This document shows positions 17,134 through 53,019 of a DNA stretch of 64,000 nt, in pieces. Every line of letters starts with the position of its first letter. Within the stretch, counting starts at the first letter, position 1. The DNA comes from Gemmatimonadota bacterium. GTDB taxonomy: Bacteria; Gemmatimonadota; Gemmatimonadetes; Palauibacterales; KS3-K002. The stretch covers positions 1 through 64,000 of the forward strand of contig JBDHJS010000025.1 of assembly GCA_039586795.1 (NCBI GenBank), read 5' to 3'. Under the pieces are notes generated by a model. It saw only the letters and a list, made by a program, of their open reading frames with translations. It made no database searches and was not told the origin of the DNA. The position numbers and the translations under genes are program-made.

Positions 17134-18969
17134 ATGTGCGGGATTGTCGGATACACAGGGTCTGCTGAGGCAGCGCCGCTGCTGCTGGACGGATTGCGTC
17201 GTCTGGAGTATCGGGGCTACGACTCGGCGGGCATCAGCGTATGTTCGAACGGGTCGATCGACACGCGAAAGATGCCGGGCAAGATATCGAACCTGGCGCA
17301 GTCGATCGGCGGTGACCTTCCCAAGGGGACGACCGGGATCGCTCACACGCGCTGGGCGACGCATGGTGCGCCTAACCAGATCAACGCCCATCCCCACCAC
17401 GACTGCAGCGGTGAGATATCCGTCGTGCACAACGGCATCATCGAGAACGCCGTCGTGCTCAGGCAAAAGCTGGAGGAGTTGGGTCACACACTGCAGAGCG
17501 AGACCGATACGGAGGTCCTCGCCCACCTGATCGAAGAGGCCTACGAGGACAATCTCGAGGACGCGGTGGCGGCAGCGCTGCAGCAGGTCGATGGGACGTA
17601 CGGCATCGCGGTCGTATCGAGCCGCGATCCCGAGAAGTTAGTCGCGGCCCGCAATGGCTCGCCGCTGTTGCTGGGGATCGGCGAAGAGAACACATACTTC
17701 GTCGCTTCTGATGCGGCCGCCATCGTCGAGCACACGCGCGATGTCATCTACCTGGATGATGGCGAGCTGGCCGTCGTCAATCGTGATGGGCACCGGACGT
17801 TCGACCTCAAAGGCGAGACGCTGACGAAAGAGGTCAGTCGCGTCTCCTGGGACCTGGGTACGATCGAGCGCGGCGGATTCCCGCACTACATGTTGAAGGA
17901 GATCTTCGAGCAGCCCAACTCGGTACGCGACACGATGCGCGGCCGGTTGCTGGTGGAAGAAGGCCTCTCACGCCTGGGCGGTCTGTCCAGCTGTCTGCCG
18001 TGGAAAGAGATCGGTAACTACAACCGTATCGTGTTGACCGCGTGCGGAACGTCATGGCATGCGGCGCTGATCGGCGAGTACATGCTCGAGGAGTTCGCGC
18101 GGATCCCGGTCGAGACCGAGTACGCATCGGAGTTCCGCTATAGGGATCCGGTGCTCGACGAAAAGTCGCTGGTCATCGCCATCTCCCAGTCGGGGGAAAC
18201 AGCGGACACGCTGGCGGCGATTCGCGAGGCGAAAGCCAAGGGCGCTCGGGTGGCGACCATCGTCAACGTCGTCGGCTCGACCATCGCCCGCGAGTCCGAC
18301 TGCGGCGTCTACATCCACGCCGGCCCAGAGATCGGTGTCGCCTCCACGAAAGCGTTCACCTCGCAGGTCGTCGCCCTGGCTCTCATCACGCTCTACCTGA
18401 CCACGGGCAGCGAAGAGATGCGGGAACGCGCCGGCGAAGTGGTCGCGGCGCTGGAGAAGCTGCCGGACCAGATCGCTGAGATCCTGGAGCGGAATGACGA
18501 GATCCGCGCGATGGCCGAGCTCTACCACCTGAACCAGAACTTCCTCTACCTCGGCCGCGGCTACGACTTCCCGGTCGCGCTGGAGGGTGCGCTCAAGCTG
18601 AAAGAGATCAGCTACATCCACGCCGAGGGCTATCCGGCGGCGGAGATGAAGCACGGCCCCATCGCTCTGATCGACGAGAACATGCCGGTCGTCTTCATCG
18701 CGCCCAAGGGCCGCGTCTACAAGAAGATCCTCTCCAACATCGAAGAGGTCAAAGCCCGGGGCGGCCGGGTGATCGCGATCACAACCGACGGCAACGGCGA
18801 ACTGGACCGCCTTGCCGACCACAGAATCTCGGTGCCCACGACGCACGAGATGCTGCAGCCGGTGCTCACGGTCATTCCATTGCAGCTCCTGGCCTATCAC
18901 ATTGCTGTGCTACGCGGCTGCAACGTGGACCAGCCGAGGAATCTGGCGAAGAGCGTTACGGTGGAGTAG
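17134..18969 (+). CDS. glmS: Glutamine-fructose-6-phosphate aminotransferase
   Basis: MCGIVG, LEYRGYDSAG, HTRWATHG, SQSGETADT, PRNLAKSVTVE. Confidence 0.98.
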   Translation: MCGIVGYTGSAEAAPLLLDGLRRLEYRGYDSAGISVCSNGSIDTRKMPGKISNLAQSIGGDLPKGTTGIAHTRWATHGAPNQINAHPHHDCSGEISVVHNGIIENAVVLRQKLEELGHTLQSETDTEVLAHLIEEAYEDNLEDAVAAALQQVDGTYGIAVVSSRDPEKLVAARNGSPLLLGIGEENTYFVASDAAAIVEHTRDVIYLDDGELAVVNRDGHRTFDLKGETLTKEVSRVSWDLGTIERGGFPHYMLKEIFEQPNSVRDTMRGRLLVEEGLSRLGGLSSCLPWKEIGNYNRIVLTACGTSWHAALIGEYMLEEFARIPVETEYASEFRYRDPVLDEKSLVIAISQSGETADTLAAIREAKAKGARVATIVNVVGSTIARESDCGVYIHAGPEIGVASTKAFTSQVVALALITLYLTTGSEEMRERAGEVVAALEKLPDQIAEILERNDEIRAMAELYHLNQNFLYLGRGYDFPVALEGALKLKEISYIHAEGYPAAEMKHGPIALIDENMPVVFIAPKGRVYKKILSNIEEVKARGGRVIAITTDGNGELDRLADHRISVPTTHEMLQPVLTVIPLQLLAYHIAVLRGCNVDQPRNLAKSVTVE

Positions 18970-18970
18970 G

Positions 18971-19068
18971 CGGTAGACGGTAGACAGTAGACGGTGGGGT
19001 GCAGACAATCTGTATCCCACCGTTCGTTTTACTCCGTCCACCGTCCACCGTCTACCGTCTACCGTCCA
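18971..19068. repeat. Heptamer inverted-repeat hairpin element, copy A
   Basis: GGTAGAC-type x3-4, inner 15 bp stem (18991-19005/19009-19023), then CCGTCYA x5 (19034-19068). Confidence 0.85.
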
Positions 19069-19119
19069 CTCAACTGCCGAACTTGCTTCCCGTAAGACCC
19101 CTTCCCAACTTCAACCCCC

Positions 19120-44451: not shown

Positions 44452-44566
44452 AGTTGATAATTCGTTGAGCCGTGTTGGCTAGGGTGGCGCGGACGGGTTG
44501 GGGAATGCTCGAAGTTGAAATGGTTAAACGCCCAGCGCCCAATTTCCAAGTTCTTCAGGAGGAGAA

Positions 44567-45621: not shown

Positions 45622-45726
45622 CGTAGACGGTAAGTGGTAGACGGTAAGCGGTAGACGGTAGAACCTACCGGATGCCGCTTACCGTGTTCGTATTACCGTC
45701 TACCGTCCACCGTCCACCGTCAACCG
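45622..45726. repeat. Heptamer inverted-repeat hairpin element, copy B
   Basis: Alternating GGTAGAC/GGTAAGY x6, then TCYACCG-type units; inner ~21 bp stem around an AAC loop. Confidence 0.85.
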
Positions 45727-45735
45727 GAGCAACCC

Positions 45736-47464: not shown

Positions 47465-48655
47465 CTATGGTGGTGTCAGCGGTAGCTTTCGCGTGTCCGC
47501 GACGGCGGTCCGCTTTGGCAACGAAGGCGCGATGCGCTGGAGGACCTTCTCCGCGGTGGCTCTGTAGGCGGTAAGCTTGCCGCCGTAGATGCTCAGCACA
47601 CGCGGCGGCTCGCGACGGTCGGTCGGTTCGGCACGAAGTATGACCTCGCGGGTGCGGTGGAATGCGTGACCTTTCCCGGTGGGCAGAACACGCAACCCGG
47701 CGAACGCATCGATGACGGCCCCTTCACGGTCAGCCTGGTAGCGCGGGAAGTAACGGTTGAGGATGCGGATCAGGTAATTCTTCTCGGACCGCAGCGCGTG
47801 CACCCGATCGGGGTCGCCGCGGAACCGCGTCTCGGTGGTCCCTACCAACGTCTCGCCGTGCCAGGGCATGACGAATATGGCGCGACCGTCTCGCGGACAC
47901 TCGACGTAGTAGATGCCGCGATCGACCTGTCCACGTACGACGATGTGACTTCCCTGGATGAGCTCGATACCCAGCTGCTTGATGCTGGGTTCGATGCGAT
48001 CGAGCACACGGTTCACCCAGGGCCCGGCGGCATTGACCATCACGCGAGCCTGGCAGGCCTTTTCGGTCCCGTTCTCCGCGTAGCGAACGATGCAGCCGTC
48101 ATCCGTGAGTGCGGCACCGATGAACTCGGCTGGCATCGCCAGCTCGGCTCCCAGGCGGATTGCCGATTCCATGACTGCACGCGTGAGGAGCGTATCCTCG
48201 GTCTGCGCGTCGTAGTACCGGTATACCGCCTTGAGGTCGTCGGTGAGCAACCCGTCGAGATCGCCCCAGGTCGAGCGCGGCACTCGTCTGAAGCGCACTT
48301 GCTTACGCAGGCGACCCAGAATCGCGTACAGCGAGAGACCGGCGCGAATCAGCAATGGGCCGCGGCGCGTGGCGTCGTAGATCGGGATGAAGAACGGCCT
48401 AAGCGTAACCAGGTCGGGCGCCAGTTCGAGGAGTAGCGCCCGCTCGTCCAGACCCTCCTGAACGAGGGAGAACTCATAGCTCTCCAGGTAGCGGAGACCG
48501 CCGTGGATCAGCTTGCTCGATTTGCTGGACGTGCCCGCGGCCAGTGCGGATTTCTCGATGAGCAGAACGGAGTGGCCGGCGGCGGCAGCGGCCTGGGCGA
48601 CGCCGACGCCGTTGATGCCGCCCCCCACGACGACGACGTCGTGGGACTCAGTCAT
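47465..48655 (-). CDS. glpD: Glycerol-3-phosphate dehydrogenase-like FAD oxidoreductase (short form)
   Basis: VVGGGINGVG, GTSSKSSKLIHGGLRYLE, NAAGPW, GTTE, GLRVLP, GGKLTAYR. Confidence 0.82.
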   Translation of the reverse strand: MTESHDVVVVGGGINGVGVAQAAAAAGHSVLLIEKSALAAGTSSKSSKLIHGGLRYLESYEFSLVQEGLDERALLLELAPDLVTLRPFFIPIYDATRRGPLLIRAGLSLYAILGRLRKQVRFRRVPRSTWGDLDGLLTDDLKAVYRYYDAQTEDTLLTRAVMESAIRLGAELAMPAEFIGAALTDDGCIVRYAENGTEKACQARVMVNAAGPWVNRVLDRIEPSIKQLGIELIQGSHIVVRGQVDRGIYYVECPRDGRAIFVMPWHGETLVGTTETRFRGDPDRVHALRSEKNYLIRILNRYFPRYQADREGAVIDAFAGLRVLPTGKGHAFHRTREVILRAEPTDRREPPRVLSIYGGKLTAYRATAEKVLQRIAPSLPKRTAVADTRKLPLTPP

Positions 48656-49436
48656 CGCGCCGGCGGCCGGGCACGAGCCGCCTGTCGCTCAACATCTCGC
48701 CGATGGCCATCGTCTCCACGAACCTGACGCCGTGAGCCGCCAGGGCGAGTGCGAGCTCGGGGTCGATGATCTCGTAAAGAGCCCAGCGCCAGGCGCCGCT
48801 CCACAGTTCCTGGTCGTCGGGCACGAGCATGTAGTTGCAGAACAGATACTCGGGCGCGATCGCCTCCGCCGTCTGCTTGACGGTCTCGTTCCATTCCTGA
48901 AGCACCCAGCCGATCGCACTGGCGCCTTTCGCCCGGGCGCGCTTGATCGTCTCGGGGTCGAAGGAGATGACGACGCAGCGATCGTTGGCTGGCTTGAGCG
49001 CCGCCATCACTTTGTCGACGACGAGGTCGACGCCGAAGCGGTGCACACTCTCGACCTTTAGCTCGACGAAGGCGACGATCTTTTCGTTCTCCACGATGAA
49101 CTCGACGGCGTCCTCGAGGGTCGGGACGGACGTGCCCTCGAACCGTCCGTGGTGTCGCGAGTCGTCGTTCACCTCGACCTGCCACAGCTGATCGAGCGTC
49201 ATGTCCATTATGACGCGCTCATCCTTTCCCGTACGCCAGAGATCGGAATCGTGGAGCAGCACCGGCGTATGATCGGCGGTCATCTGAACATCGAACTCGA
49301 CGTAGCCGGCGCCGGCTTTGACGGCGGCGCGGAGGCTTTCGAGGGTGTTTTCGGGGTAGCGGAGCGCGTAGCCGCGGTGCGCGATGAGGGCGGGAGGGCG
49401 GACCCTGACATTGGGTGGCATGATGATCTTCTTCAT
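48648..49436 (-). CDS. Glycerophosphodiester phosphodiesterase
   Basis: IAHRG, PENT, VEFDVQ, LLHD, VPTL, VELK, ISFD. Confidence 0.92.
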   Translation of the reverse strand: MKKIIMPPNVRVRPPALIAHRGYALRYPENTLESLRAAVKAGAGYVEFDVQMTADHTPVLLHDSDLWRTGKDERVIMDMTLDQLWQVEVNDDSRHHGRFEGTSVPTLEDAVEFIVENEKIVAFVELKVESVHRFGVDLVVDKVMAALKPANDRCVVISFDPETIKRARAKGASAIGWVLQEWNETVKQTAEAIAPEYLFCNYMLVPDDQELWSGAWRWALYEIIDPELALALAAHGVRFVETMAIGEMLSDRRLVPGRRRDD

Positions 49437-49526
49437 GGGGGTAATTTGTGGGGTTGGGGATGGGGGCGATAGGGGCTTTGATGATGATTGGTTGATAGCT
49501 GGGGGTGATGTTGTTGCTGGAAATGT

Positions 49527-49552
49527 TCAACACCTAATCCTCAATGCTCAAT
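49527..49552. repeat. Left heptamer repeat arm of the four-helix-bundle element
   Basis: TCAACAC CTAATCC TCAATGC TCAAT; 49529-49545 is the exact reverse complement of 49954-49970. Confidence 0.85.
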
Positions 49553-49558
49553 GGTCAT

Positions 49559-49951
49559 GTGAAGAAGGAACGTGAGTACGATCTTGAGGAGCGGTTGATC
49601 AGCTTTGCTGTCATGATTAGCGAGATTGCTGATCGGTTGCCCAGGACTCGTTTGGGGCGCCATGTATATGGGCAGTTGGTGCGATGCGGTACATCCGTTG
49701 CGCCGAACTACGCTGAAGCACAGAACGCTGAGTCGAGGAGAGACTTCATTCATAAGATGAAGATCTGCCTGAAGGAACTCGGAGAGACGGTTGTGTGGTT
49801 GAAGCTCAGTCTTAGGACTGGGAGCGGTAGAAGGGCTGGAGCGGAAGCCGGGCTCCGCGAAGCCACCGAGCTAACAAGGATCTTCGCCACAAGCATCCAG
49901 ACCGCCAAACGGAACTCTAGCGCGAGGCGACCCCCCCAATCCCCACCGTGA
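49559..49951 (+). CDS. Four-helix-bundle protein (TIGR02436 / 23S rRNA IVP / Avd-like)
   Basis: DLEERLISFA, QLVRCGTSVAPNYAEAQNAESRRDFIHKMKICLKEL.ET..WL, EATELTRIF..SIQTAK. Confidence 0.93.
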   Translation: MKKEREYDLEERLISFAVMISEIADRLPRTRLGRHVYGQLVRCGTSVAPNYAEAQNAESRRDFIHKMKICLKELGETVVWLKLSLRTGSGRRAGAEAGLREATELTRIFATSIQTAKRNSSARRPPQSPP

Positions 49952-49953
49952 AG

Positions 49954-49983
49954 ATTGAGGATTAGGTGTTAGGTGTTGAGGAT
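49954..49983. repeat. Right heptamer repeat arm of the four-helix-bundle element
   Basis: ATTGAGG ATTAGGT GTTAGGT GTTGAGG immediately after the stop codon. Confidence 0.85.
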
Positions 49984-50010
49984 TTTCGCTGGTGTGAAGA
50001 CCTAGAGCGA

Positions 50011-50043
50011 CAAACTGAAACGGGCCGCAAAAGCGCGGCCCGT
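50011..50043 (-). terminator. Rho-independent terminator of the M16 peptidase gene
   Basis: 9 bp GC-rich stem ACGGGCCGC/GCGGCCCGT followed on the minus strand by TTCAGTTTG. Confidence 0.65.
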
Positions 50044-50064
50044 CTCACGTCAATATCGAGAAAC

Positions 50065-52914
50065 CTACTCACCACCACCCTCCGCCTGCTCTTCCGGATA
50101 CAACGAAACCCGCACATAATTCTCAACATTCAAATACAACCGGGCCGCTTCCCGCACGTCCTCCGCCGTCAACGCATCGATATACTCCAAATACGTCGGG
50201 ATGTCTCGCATGTCTCCGCCCGACGCAACCCGGGCGTTCATCTGGCCGATCCAGTATCCGTTGTTTCGCAGGTTCGTCTCGTTAGAGCGTCGCTGCTGTT
50301 CCTTCACCTTGTCGATGTCTTCTTGGCTCGGTCCGTCCGTCTTCAGGCGCTCGATCACGGCGAACACGGAGTCGACCATCTCTTCCAGTCGATCCGGTGA
50401 CGTGCCGAAGCTGATCGTGTACGAGTATTCCTCGCGGGGGTTCTTGCTCGAGGCGCCGCTGACGCCGACCCCGTAGGTGCCGCCCATGTCTTCGCGCAGC
50501 ACCTCGCGCAGCTGGATCCGCATGACGCTGGCAAGTGACGCCAGGTGGTGGCGGTTGGTGCGGTTCCACTCGAACGGGCCGGTGAAGACGATGCGCGTCT
50601 GCGCTTTCGGTTCGATGCCGCGGTAGACCGTCTTCTCGATCACGCCGGTGGGCGGCGTGATACCGACATCGCGCCAGGCCTCGTCGCGACGCGTGGAGGG
50701 GAGGCTGGCCAGATAGGTCTCGACCAGCGGCTTCAGTTCGTCGGGGTCGAAGTTGCCGACGAACATGAAAGTGAAGTCGCTGGCATCGGCGAAGCGATCA
50801 GTGAAGAAGTCGTACGAGATGTCCAGGTTCGTCTCGGTCTCGTAGCGTCCGGCGCTGGGCGGCCGGGCGCGCGGATGGCCTTGGGACATGGTGACGGTAA
50901 TCGTATCGAAGAACGCCGTGTTCGGATCGGCCTGGCGGTTTGCTAGGAAGCCGGCCATGCGGGTCTTCCAGGACTGGAAGGCCTCTTCATCCCTGCGCGG
51001 TTGGGTGAAGAACAGGTAGACGAGCTGGAACAGGGTCTCCACGTCCTGCGGCGATGCGCTGCCGGAGAAACCCTCGGACAGGCCGCCGATGAACGGGGAC
51101 ACGCTGACAGCTTTGCCGGCCAGTGCCTTCTGGAGATCGACGAAGTTGAACTCGCCAGCTCCGCTCTGGCCGACTATGGCCGAGGCGGTGGCCGCGGCCA
51201 GGTAGTCCTCATCGGACGCCAGCGACGTGCCGCCTGGACTGTAGGCGCGCATCAGGATCTCGTCGTCCTTGAAGTCGGTCGGCTTGAGCAGCACGTCGAC
51301 TCCGTTTGACAGCGCCCAGCGAGTGATCCCGACCTCGGGCATCTCTCTCGTCATCCTGACCGACCCGGCCACCGGCATCACGGCGACGAGCGGCGCGTCG
51401 GCGACCGCGTCCTCGTAAGCGTCGACCTCGGCGGCCGCGGCCGCGGCCATCACCACCCCCAGCTCATCATCGGTCGGGATCTTCACGCCTTCCTTCTCCG
51501 GGCCGTTCACCATGACGACGCGGTTGCCGTCGACGATCCATTCGCTGGCCAGGCGGTTCACCTCTTCCAGCTCGATCCCCGGGACGAATCTCTGGTAGAG
51601 CCCGAACTCGTAGTCGATGCCGGGGATCGGCTCGTCGTACAGATAGGCCCGGAGGTATTCGGCCGCGTAGGCGCTGGAGTTTGTCTTCTCGCGCTCCGCG
51701 TGGGCCTGTTCCATGCTGCGCAACATCTCGGATTTCGCCCGCGCCAGCTCGGTTCCAGTGAACCCGTGCTGCGCGACTCGCGCGCCTTCGATGAGCAGCG
51801 CTTCCAGGCCGCGCTCGATCCCGTTCTCCGGGACGGCGGCCACCATCAGATAGACTTCGCTGCTACCGATGAAGCGTCCCTGGCCCGTGAAGGCGAACAT
51901 GAACGGTGGGTCGGCTTCCCGGGTCTTCTCCATCAACCGGGTGTTGAGCATCTGGCTGAACAGCGACTCGACGAGGGACTGGCGGTAGGAACTAACGTCG
52001 CTGGCCTCTCGCGCCGGCTGCTTCCAGTAAATGCTGACTGTGTTGTTGGGCGCCTCGGGATCGCTGGCGATGGCGTAGAGGGTCTCCTCGTGGTCGGGCA
52101 CGGCGAAGACCGTTCGCTCACGAGGGTTGTCGGCCATCTCGAGGCCGGAGAAGTGTTGTTTGATCAGCTCCTCTATCACCGCCGCATCGAAATCGCCTAC
52201 GGCGATGACGGCCATCAGGTCGGGTCGGTACCAATCTGTGTAGAAATCGATCAGCGTCTGGTACTCGAAGCTCTCGAGGATCTCGGGCTTGCCGATGGGC
52301 AGACGCTCTGCGTAGCGAGAGTCCTTGAACAGAATCGGCAGCTGCTTTTCCTGCATGCGCATCATCGCGCCTTGCCCAAGCCGCCATTCTTCGATGATGA
52401 CGCCGCGCTCCTTGTCGATCTCCTCGTGATCGAAAATCTGACCGTGGGCCCAGTCCTCCAGAACCAGAAACGCGGTTTCAACCAGCTCCGCGCTGTCGGT
52501 GGGCACCTGCAGCATGTACACCGTCTCATCGAAGCTGGTATAGGCGTTGATCTCCGGCCCGAACTGCATGCCGATGCCCTCGAGATAGTCCACCAGCTCC
52601 TGCTTCTCGAAATGCTCCGTGCCATTGAACGCCATATGCTCGACGAAGTGGGCCAGCCCCTGCTGGTCGTCGTTCTCGAGCACCGAGCCGGCGTTGAGCA
52701 CCAGGCGCAGTTGCGCCCGGTCGCGTGGCTCGCTGTTCTCGCGGATGTAGTAGCGGATTCCATTCGGCAGTGTGCCGGTGATGACCGCCGGATCGACTGG
52801 CAGCCGCTGGTCCAGCCCGGCCTGGGCGGCTGCCGGATCCTGGGCAGAGGCCGGTCGCAGGCTCAACAAGACTGCGGCCGCGGCCAGCACGGAAGGGAAC
52901 AGTCGGCGTCTCAT
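50065..52914 (-). CDS. pqqL: M16-family zinc metallopeptidase (PqqL-like), secreted
   Basis: GLAHFVEHMAFNGT (HxxEH), NAYTSFDETVY, RLPIG, WYRPD; signal peptide. Confidence 0.92.
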   Translation of the reverse strand: MRRRLFPSVLAAAAVLLSLRPASAQDPAAAQAGLDQRLPVDPAVITGTLPNGIRYYIRENSEPRDRAQLRLVLNAGSVLENDDQQGLAHFVEHMAFNGTEHFEKQELVDYLEGIGMQFGPEINAYTSFDETVYMLQVPTDSAELVETAFLVLEDWAHGQIFDHEEIDKERGVIIEEWRLGQGAMMRMQEKQLPILFKDSRYAERLPIGKPEILESFEYQTLIDFYTDWYRPDLMAVIAVGDFDAAVIEELIKQHFSGLEMADNPRERTVFAVPDHEETLYAIASDPEAPNNTVSIYWKQPAREASDVSSYRQSLVESLFSQMLNTRLMEKTREADPPFMFAFTGQGRFIGSSEVYLMVAAVPENGIERGLEALLIEGARVAQHGFTGTELARAKSEMLRSMEQAHAEREKTNSSAYAAEYLRAYLYDEPIPGIDYEFGLYQRFVPGIELEEVNRLASEWIVDGNRVVMVNGPEKEGVKIPTDDELGVVMAAAAAAEVDAYEDAVADAPLVAVMPVAGSVRMTREMPEVGITRWALSNGVDVLLKPTDFKDDEILMRAYSPGGTSLASDEDYLAAATASAIVGQSGAGEFNFVDLQKALAGKAVSVSPFIGGLSEGFSGSASPQDVETLFQLVYLFFTQPRRDEEAFQSWKTRMAGFLANRQADPNTAFFDTITVTMSQGHPRARPPSAGRYETETNLDISYDFFTDRFADASDFTFMFVGNFDPDELKPLVETYLASLPSTRRDEAWRDVGITPPTGVIEKTVYRGIEPKAQTRIVFTGPFEWNRTNRHHLASLASVMRIQLREVLREDMGGTYGVGVSGASSKNPREEYSYTISFGTSPDRLEEMVDSVFAVIERLKTDGPSQEDIDKVKEQQRRSNETNLRNNGYWIGQMNARVASGGDMRDIPTYLEYIDALTAEDVREAARLYLNVENYVRVSLYPEEQAEGGGE

Positions 52915-53019
52915 GAGCATCACTCCTGGTAACGGGACGGTTGGGTCCCGGGAGATGTAGAGGGGCTTACAAGCTCAATAATATGCCGACGGCGACTCAG
53001 GCGGGCCAGAGGGTCAAGC

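What the first reader, a model, noticed from the sequence alone, without database searches (positions are those of the whole stretch)
49280..50200. Symmetric strand-composition switch (G/T-rich to C/A-rich) centred on the cassette, altering synonymous codons of both neighbours
Seen: on the + strand, 49437-49520 has only 4 C in 84 nt and 50061-50140 has only 6 G in 80 nt. In the last ~43 codons of the M16 peptidase all 5 Tyr are TAT and all 5 Leu are TTG, with GGT GGT GGT, whereas the gene body mostly uses TAC, CTG/CTC and GGC. The 5' end of the GDPD gene is conversely C/A-rich. On each strand the DNA 5' of the element is therefore depleted of C. Inference: this is the polarity expected if the site is repeatedly broken and resected, exposing 3' ssDNA tails to cytosine deamination, or repeatedly rewritten by a biased copying process. 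It would be a mutational footprint of a recurrent insertion/excision hotspot.
Basis: partly seen in the sequence, partly recalled or inferred. Interest (0 to 1): 0.82.

Follow-up and report, generated by a model that had tools for sequence, protein, structure and literature searches.

The report
Cytosine-loss halo beside heptamer repeat arms
Next to short 7-base repeat arrays, one DNA strand has lost much of its cytosine over about 100 bases, which rewrites the silent codon positions of neighbouring genes and points to an undescribed local mutation process at these long-unexplained bacterial repeats.

Summary
The switch is real, and this site is near the extreme of a genome-wide pattern. GDPD's start ranks 1st and pqqL's end 10th of 3160 genes for G and C loss. 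Across 215 oriented heptamer arms, four-fold sites on the arm-bearing strand rise from 11% C beside the arm to about 40% at 120 nt. G gains most, T gains some, A is flat. The halo holds in sense and antisense genes and beside C-rich arms. It is absent at ordinary and plain-hairpin gene ends and in arm-less orthologues, and it recurs in Planctomycetota and, more weakly, Verrucomicrobiota. C>T deamination alone does not fit; C>G is needed. And 35 lone arms show C loss on both sides with no sign switch, against a resected central break. Best reading (about 0.5): each arm repeatedly exposes or error-prone-copies one strand locally, and the 'switch' is two mirror-image halos. No enzyme was identified. 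Five literature searches found no description. This scan noted the same kind of skew on other DNA (HIP1, myxobacterial arrays) and noted the four-helix-bundle cassette many times.

The parts
48648..49436 (-). Glycerophosphodiester phosphodiesterase (GDPD) gene, host neighbour
   Evidence: PF03009 E=4e-31
49302..49436 (-). First 45 GDPD codons: G-poor part of the left halo (C lost from the + strand)
   Evidence: Four-fold sites C23 G2 A1 T1; the 11 other aligned orthologues have G8-14; rank 1 of 3160
49437..49520 (+). Non-coding part of the left halo, 4 C in 84 nt; a homologous spacer is present in G001
49521..49557 (+). Left heptamer arm; itself C/A-rich, i.e. opposite in composition to its flank; member of a dispersed family in this genome
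   Evidence: Inverted pair I1, 37 nt, 76%; family listed
49544..49951 (+). Four-helix-bundle gene (PF05635, 23S_rRNA_IVP), one of 4 in the genome, antisense to the pqqL-GDPD-glpD run
   Evidence: PF05635 E=1.2e-13; orthologous gene at the same site in G001
49949..49985 (-). Right heptamer arm (inverted copy of the left arm)
50016..50047 (.). GC-rich hairpin after the pqqL stop, terminator-like (inferred)
   Evidence: Inverted pair I8, 13 nt, 92%
50065..50196 (-). Last 43 pqqL codons plus stop: right halo, C lost from the - strand
   Evidence: 2 synonymous C vs 14.0 expected; codon list
50065..52923 (-). M16 peptidase (pqqL-like) gene, host neighbour
   Evidence: PF00675 and PF05193

Best explanation
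Each heptamer arm is an oriented site at which the strand that carries the 'left-arm' motif is repeatedly left unpaired, or is copied by an error-prone patch. This could be a nick or gap on the opposite strand, or a protein- or RNA-held bubble. It reaches about 100 nt 5' of the arm and, more weakly, up to about 300 nt 3' of it. Cytosines on that strand are lost to G and T. The usual route would be C to uracil to an abasic site, then bypass with C or A. Over evolutionary time this rewrites free positions: spacers and synonymous codons. Two arms facing each other give the G/T-to-C/A 'switch'. SHOWN: anchoring at arms, strand, range, C-specificity, C>G share, independence of gene and background-skew direction, absence in arm-less orthologues. 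INFERRED: that it is mutation rather than selection (moderate support), the single-stranded intermediate, the abasic-bypass route, and any role of the four-helix-bundle protein.
For: Gradient on the arm strand: four-fold C 0.11, 0.14, 0.18, 0.18, 0.25, 0.28, 0.36, 0.34, 0.38 in 15-nt bins to about 0.40; G 0.63 to 0.41; A flat; two-fold T/(C+T) 0.52-0.57 to 0.24; two-fold G/(A+G) about flat (215 arms). Sense genes +0.65/+0.52/+0.34 and antisense genes +0.79/+0.39/+0.35 in 30-nt bins, background +0.03. No neighbour-base context: O/E 0.63-0.81 in all contexts. Lone arms have the same sign on both sides, 17 of 20 scorable sites downstream. The halo is equal on G-rich-background and C-rich-background strands, log OR 1.03 vs 1.01. 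Arm-less orthologues are normal: C fraction 0.40 vs 0.40 control in G002, and 0.33 vs 0.35 in G000. Synonymous memory between G000 and G002 is lower beside arms, kappa 0.12 (0.09-0.16) vs 0.24 (0.22-0.25). Raised C-out rates beat selection against C by 8-14 log units with equal parameter number. It recurs outside the phylum: 20 of 25 scorable sides, p=0.001. The genome has two Y-family (PF00817) and two DnaE (PF07733) matches, so candidate bypass polymerases exist.
Against: No nick, gap, bubble or enzyme was observed. C>G as the main outcome is the signature of eukaryotic REV1 (Hinch 2023, passages); I know of no bacterial polymerase with that preference (recalled), and one search for it returned nothing relevant. 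The G000-G002 pair is near saturation (body kappa 0.16-0.21), the models treat codons as independent, and selection is only 8-14 log units worse. Per-site strength is uneven: 37% of arm-adjacent ends have z<-2 and some have none. Antisense bins are small (28-181 codons). Some 'lone' arms may have lost partners. Verrucomicrobiota alone is not significant (8 of 11, p=0.32). In pqqL the halo reaches about 210 nt from the arm, beyond the average range and behind a terminator-like hairpin. Four contigs from three studies that cover parts of the halos show 0 differences, so there is no sign of rapid ongoing variation; contigs drop rare variants.
Confidence: 0.5

Rival explanations
1. Double-strand break and 5'-to-3' resection at a recurrent insertion/excision hotspot: both 3' tails are exposed and lose C.
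For: Polarity at paired arms is that of break flanks: C>N on the forward-strand flank (Hinch 2023 passages). Sites are reused: arms at the same gene ends in 29 of 463 orthologue pairs vs 10.3 expected, p=9e-10, often with a different unit or period. A gradient also runs through the cargo gene: four-fold G 0.44 to 0.22 in 13 Gemmatimonadota genes.
Against: Lone arms show no switch. The halo is measured from the arm whatever the cassette length. Left and right halo strengths do not correlate (rho -0.13, n=62; noisy). The range is about 100 nt against 1-2 kb of resection in the human case. The cassette here is old, shared with G001.
Confidence: 0.17
2. Selection, not mutation: C is disfavoured on the arm strand near arms, e.g. 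to protect an RNA or DNA structure, avoid Rho loading, or favour opening of the DNA.
For: Amino-acid identity is not lowered beside arms (0.79-0.86 vs 0.78). A one-parameter 'selection against C' model improves fit by 40 log units over no effect.
Against: The flank polarity is the same beside C-rich arms (O/E 0.76-0.77), so avoiding pairing with a G-rich arm does not explain it. Antisense genes become C-rich in their own mRNA. 128 plain-hairpin ends are unaffected (four-fold C 0.34 vs 0.33). A does not rise as it should if C alone were avoided (logL -915 vs -906). Turnover is faster, not slower.
Confidence: 0.15
3. RNA-templated rewriting: transcripts through the arm are reverse-transcribed from the arm with C-specific errors and copied back, by analogy with DGR retrohoming and the Avd-like cargo protein.
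For: The direction and the ~100-nt decay fit cDNA primed at the arm. Arms lie mostly just after stop codons on the sense strand. The kinship of PF05635 to Avd is recalled, not tested.
Against: No RVT_1 match in G000 (97.8% complete). Antisense genes are affected equally. A is spared, whereas DGRs mutate A (recalled).
Confidence: 0.06
4. The halo is decayed repeat sequence, or gene-conversion smear from G-rich arms.
For: Own-arm 6-mers are slightly enriched in the flank (261 vs 208). The halo is strongest beside G-rich arms (four-fold C O/E 0.55 vs 0.76).
Against: The changes sit at synonymous positions of intact, conserved proteins. This window's left arm is C/A-rich while its flank is C-poor.
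Confidence: 0.06
5. Plain spontaneous deamination of single-stranded DNA (C>T, with or without A>G), as in replication skew.
For: NNY C>T is strong (O/E 1.55) and is larger on G-rich-background strands (0.53 vs 0.39).
Against: It cannot produce the G gain at four-fold sites: logL -953 (C>T) and -932 (C>T plus A>G) vs -906. The two-fold A/G ratio barely moves.
Confidence: 0.06

Closest known systems
Strand-asymmetric mutation flanking human meiotic break hotspots (Hinch et al. 2023, PMC7615360; abstract and 12 passages seen)
   Same: C>N on one flank and the mirror image on the other; C>G and C>T both raised; single-stranded DNA plus bypass synthesis is the proposed cause.
   Different: Bacterial; about 100 nt rather than 1-2 kb; peak at the element, not off-centre; no deaminase-like sequence context; A mostly spared; no sign switch at lone arms.
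G-rich heptameric repeats of Xanthomonas and Nostoc (Rehm et al. 2015, PMC4692102; abstract, introduction and 12 passages seen)
   Same: Intergenic period-7 arrays, often in inverted pairs, with the G-rich strand just after stop codons on the sense strand.
   Different: That paper has no occurrence of 'skew' and reports stable neighbourhoods. Here several arm families are not G-rich, and the neighbouring codons are altered.
PF05635 / S23p four-helix-bundle ORF of 23S rRNA intervening sequences (PMC4990558; listing and start of abstract only)
   Same: Same Pfam family, boxed by an inverted repeat.
   Different: Sits between protein-coding genes; most arms in this genome carry no such gene; the flank footprint is not part of the known picture as far as I saw.
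Replication GC skew
   Same: One strand is G/T-rich and C-poor.
   Different: Local (about 100 nt), several times stronger, set by arm orientation, and equal on both background-skew classes.
Elhai's hypothetical GmeC-directed mismatch repair at HIP1 (PMC4390886; 7 passages seen)
   Same: An oriented site would direct strand-specific nicking and a repair patch.
   Different: Hypothetical; concerns palindromic methylation sites; the paper has no occurrence of 'skew' or 'asymmetr'.

Membership tests
Break-and-resection ssDNA mutation footprint | C loss 5' of the site on each strand, decaying with distance | tested here: met
Break-and-resection ssDNA mutation footprint | Sign switch across every initiating site | tested here: not met
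   35 lone arms: +0.54 upstream, +0.33 downstream
Break-and-resection ssDNA mutation footprint | Double-strand breaks mapped at the site | not testable with these tools
   needs break mapping
Enzymatic (AID/APOBEC-like) deamination footprint | Neighbour-base preference of the lost C | tested here: not met
   O/E 0.63-0.81 for every preceding and following base
Spontaneous ssDNA deamination skew | Change explained by C>T with or without A>G | tested here: not met
Replication GC skew | Sign follows fork direction | tested here: not met
   log OR 1.03 vs 1.01 on the two background classes; background skew is only a proxy in a 107-contig assembly
Diversity-generating retroelement | Reverse transcriptase gene | tested here: not met
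   no PF00078 match in G000
Diversity-generating retroelement | Adenine-specific change | tested here: not met
   A flat, C lost
Diversity-generating retroelement | Template/variable repeat pair | not tested
   not searched
REP/RAYT system | Y1 (HUH) transposase in the genome | tested here: not met
   no PF01797 match in G000
Heptameric intergenic repeats (Rehm type) | Period-7 arrays concentrated between genes | tested here: met
   231 intergenic period-7 arrays vs 48 or fewer for any other period 4-12
Heptameric intergenic repeats (Rehm type) | G-quadruplex-forming G-tracts | tested here: inconclusive
   only some arm families are G-rich; this window's left arm is C/A-rich; no structure test run
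PF05635 cassette | PF05635 ORF between inverted repeat arms | tested here: met
   54 of 80 related loci have arrays on both sides, 75 of 80 on at least one

The most novel reading that the evidence does not exclude
The heptamer arms are the target sites of an undescribed, cross-phylum, site-directed DNA-opening and rewriting system, possibly served in trans by the four-helix-bundle protein. It replaces the arm units genome-wide at conserved sites and, as a by-product, drives context-free C>G/C>T hypermutation of one strand. That would be a bacterial counterpart of uracil/abasic-site bypass mutagenesis at repeat-marked loci, and one case of a general rule that oriented bacterial elements leave strand-specific C-loss halos.
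Probability: 0.2. Interest if true: 0.9.

Novelty: new variant of a known kind. Interest (0 to 1): 0.72.

Why it matters
Heptamer repeats are over-represented in many bacteria and have no known origin or function (Rehm 2015, introduction). A strand-specific, C>G-rich footprint anchored at each arm is a physical trace of whatever acts there. It gives a strand, a range and a spectrum that can be tested directly. It also means codon-usage and selection analyses at such gene ends are biased, and it suggests a bacterial route to C>G transversions that I could not find described.

Tried and rejected
1) Chance or an ordinary gene-end effect: rejected (1306 control ends; 128 plain-hairpin ends; 60 array-less ends inside the non-Gemmatimonadota loci, four-fold C 0.39 and G 0.37, vs 28 arm-adjacent ends C 0.31 and G 0.47).
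2) My first G000/G002 'arm vs no arm' split was wrong because G002 uses 8-base units at many of the same sites; redone with periods 7-10. Some 'none' rows still show degenerate arrays, which dilutes the contrast.
3) The first pair-likelihood fit had an unidentifiable root and was discarded; redone with a fixed root.
4) A first look at lone arms showed little downstream signal because 38 of 78 had hidden partners.
5) Laying four public runs was swamped by recA of other organisms and gave no strain-level spectrum. Its joints from 49561 to 49954/49955 are explained by paralogous solo hairpins at C102:22735 and, by sequence match, C20:96693, not by excision at this locus.
6) Metagenome scan: the closest pqqL relative was only 66% identical.
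7) Xanthomonas- and Nostoc-type unit scans in viral contigs gave 21 mixed loci, many AT-rich contig ends; raw skew +0.13 and +0.09 in the first 100 nt; uninformative. The halo is therefore untested in those genera.
8) No Y1 transposase, reverse transcriptase or PF13366 match in G000.
9) A 17-row alignment was too diverse for a locus scan; a 3-row one was used, so the 80 loci represent this gene's subfamily only.
Full report
OBSERVATION. The window is C24 of a 4.68-Mb, 107-contig genome; related loci and earlier notes place it in Gemmatimonadota. A PF05635 four-helix-bundle gene (49544-49951, +) lies between GDPD and an M16 peptidase, both on the minus strand. It is boxed by inverted heptamer arms at 49521-49557 and 49949-49985. 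Against my own gene calls (3783 genes; 3160 of 450 nt or more), the GDPD head ranks 1st for synonymous G loss and the pqqL tail 10th for synonymous C loss.

IT IS GENOME-WIDE. A scan for G-rich-then-C-rich switches put this site 8th; the reverse polarity never exceeded 38 against 48. Three of the four PF05635 genes are among the top 8 sites, and by eye all four have arms and skewed flanks. Most of the 23 other high-scoring sites I printed are heptamer hairpins without such a gene (by eye). Period 7 dominates intergenic repeats: 231 arrays vs 48 or fewer for other periods. I compared 171 genes ending within 120 nt of an array with 1306 control ends. In the last 30 codons, observed/expected at four-fold sites is C 0.69, G 1.29, T 1.07, A 0.88; NNY T is 1.55; per-gene p=2.6e-22; no neighbour-base context. 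Ends followed by a perfect hairpin of 8 bp or more but no array (128) look like ends with neither (1197): four-fold C 0.34 vs 0.33, against 0.17 (127 genes) and 0.25 (17 genes) beside arms.

ANATOMY OF THE HALO. I oriented 254 of the arrays by motif and merged them into 215 arm sides. On the motif strand, 5' of the arm, four-fold C climbs almost linearly from 0.11 to about 0.40 over 120 nt. G falls from 0.63 to 0.41, T from 0.16 to 0.10, and A stays near 0.10. Two-fold T/(C+T) falls from about 0.55 to 0.24, and two-fold G/(A+G) stays near 0.77. Genes running either way are affected, so the rule is about DNA strand, not mRNA. C-rich arm families have it too, and this window's own left arm is C/A-rich. 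The G:C shift is equal where the motif strand has a G-rich or a C-rich background (85 vs 87 arms, 29 unclear, 14 unscored).

LONE ARMS. Of 78 arms with no called partner within 3 kb, 38 had a hidden inverted partner, and their downstream side flips sign; 40 did not. After removing local hairpins and nearby arrays, 35 remain. Their four-fold skew is +0.54 (0.39-0.69) upstream, +0.33 (0.18-0.47) in the first 150 nt downstream, +0.15 at 150-400 nt and +0.04 beyond, in sense and antisense genes alike. A resected double-strand break at the arm would give opposite signs. So the 'switch' is best read as two mirror-image halos. The gradient through cargo genes (four-fold G 0.44 to 0.22 in 13 Gemmatimonadota genes, 0.37 to 0.26 in the other loci) fits either view. 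Lost partners cannot be excluded.

SPECTRUM. I used a background rate matrix from G000-G002 pairs and the 820 four-fold sites within 45 nt of arms (counts rebuilt from rounded frequencies). C>T alone gives logL -953, C>T plus A>G -932, C>G alone -940, equal loss of C to all bases -915, and C>T x5.5 with C>G x4.2 -906, against -905 saturated. A mild extra A>G with all C>N raised cannot be excluded. Plain deamination is not enough.

RELATIVES. At the pqqL 3' end, G001 carries an orthologous four-helix-bundle gene and spacer but a different arm unit. G002, G005, G010 and G015 carry other repeat units without that gene (by eye). So the site is old and its arms are rewritten. The halo is weaker in G001 (8 C3 in the last 40 codons vs 3 here). 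I fetched 120 of about 490 G002 contigs (1.82 of about 3.9 Mb) and obtained 1147 orthologue pairs, median 79% identity. Arms occur at the same gene ends in both genomes in 29 of 463 pairs with spacers of 40 nt or more, vs 10.3 expected; 15 of 30 shared sites pair a 7-base unit with an 8-base unit. Where only one genome has an arm (23 and 65 pairs), the arm-less partner has normal C content (0.40 vs 0.40; 0.33 vs 0.35) and the arm-bearer is low (0.29, CI 0.20-0.38, which still overlaps the 0.35 control; 0.26, CI 0.22-0.30, vs 0.40). 150 pairs with a 'maybe' status on either side were left out. Residual identity at four-fold sites is 0.12 beside arms vs 0.24 at control ends. One-parameter models rank raised C>G (-3446), C>T plus C>G (-3450) and all C>N (-3452) above selection against C (-3461), fewer changes into C (-3480), C>T alone (-3485) and no effect (-3501). 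This favours mutation, moderately, since the pair is near saturation.

OTHER PHYLA. PF05635 was found in 129 of 201 sampled genomes of the phylum. In 29 of the 30 loci returned (one set aside), pooled raw skew is +0.23 at 100-200 nt upstream and -0.13 to -0.15 downstream, arms included. In 80 loci of this gene's subfamily (best 80 of 532), 54 have arrays on both sides. In the 67 non-Gemmatimonadota loci, four-fold C is 0.18, 0.35, 0.41 and 0.48 with distance, and G is 0.63 nearest the arm. Per side, 20 of 25 scorable sides exceed their own gene body (p=0.001): Planctomycetota 10 of 11, Verrucomicrobiota 8 of 11 (not significant), Gemmatimonadota 7 of 8. Phylum labels are mine, from record titles. 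Gene calls covered only 47% of those loci, and kin are not independent.

CURRENT VARIATION. Four contigs from three studies match parts of the halos with no difference (X1 49155-49453 and 49880-50550, X2 50051-50453, X4 49273-49549). One may be the source sample, and contigs hide rare variants. The process is slow or episodic, not hypervariable at this resolution.

MECHANISM. Shown: strand, anchor, range, C-specificity and a large C>G share. Inferred: a recurring single-strand gap, nick-translation patch or bubble at each arm, with uracil/abasic-site bypass giving T and G. The genome has two Y-family and two DnaE matches, and no Y1 transposase, reverse transcriptase or PF13366 match (97.8% complete). 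A solo hairpin at C20:96693 shares the arm and the first bases of this cassette's ORF, which suggests solo elements derive from gene-bearing ones. Nothing here ties the protein to the halo. Confidence: arm-anchored opening or patch 0.5; break and resection 0.17; selection 0.15; reverse transcription, repeat smear and plain deamination 0.06 each.

KNOWN WORK. Rehm 2015 (PMC4692102; abstract, introduction, 12 passages) describes the repeats and their orientation and has no occurrence of 'skew'. Hinch 2023 (PMC7615360; abstract and 12 passages) gives the closest footprint, around human meiotic breaks. Elhai 2015 (PMC4390886; 7 passages) proposes site-directed repair at HIP1. PMC4990558 was seen as a listing and abstract start only. 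DGR/Avd and REP/RAYT details are recalled. Searches found no description of such a halo. The library lacks most subscription journals, and I opened no supplements, which for Rehm 2015 might hold flank data. Unchecked notes of this scan report the same kind of skew at HIP1, myxobacterial six-base arrays, hairpin hotspots and archaeal CRISPR arrays, and the cassette itself many times. They are leads, not support.

VERDICT. Real, general and apparently undescribed for heptamer elements. It is a new variant of strand-asymmetric mutational footprints, with the mechanism inferred. Interest 0.72.

Noticed in passing
window 45641-45728: Paired G-rich heptamer arms between recA and recX; the G002 orthologue lacks them and the two genes nearly abut.
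   Followed up: partly
window 18963-19071: Another paired heptamer element of the G-rich family in this window.
   Followed up: no
window 44452-44566: The spacer before recA holds a degenerate repeat with a G/T-rich start; G002 has an array at the same gene end.
   Followed up: no
G002 loci L175-L294: At orthologous gene ends G002 often has 8-base units where G000 has 7-base units (15 of 30 shared sites): genome-wide replacement of unit length at conserved sites.
   Followed up: partly
G000 genome-wide: Many arrays begin inside the stop codon; TAG is 89 of 165 stops before arms vs 799 of 1918 elsewhere.
   Followed up: partly
G000 C20:96693: Solo hairpin sharing the left arm and the first bases of this window's four-helix-bundle ORF; looks like an internally deleted derivative.
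   Followed up: partly
G000 C34:45936-46310, C17:10406-10855, C80:23436, C82:37582: Two Y-family and two DnaE matches; the weak Y-family match may be ImuB of a mutasome (inferred).
   Followed up: no
L381-L383, L385, L387, L389, L390, L393: AT-rich records in the viral collection end in, or contain, fold-back G-rich heptamer arrays; these look like telomere-type ends or assembly fold-backs rather than bacterial elements.
   Followed up: no
G000, last 20 residues of 145 arm-adjacent genes: Mild amino-acid drift towards Trp, Met, Val, Lys, Tyr and Glu and away from Cys, Asn, Gln and Ser relative to 1392 controls; untested for significance.
   Followed up: partly
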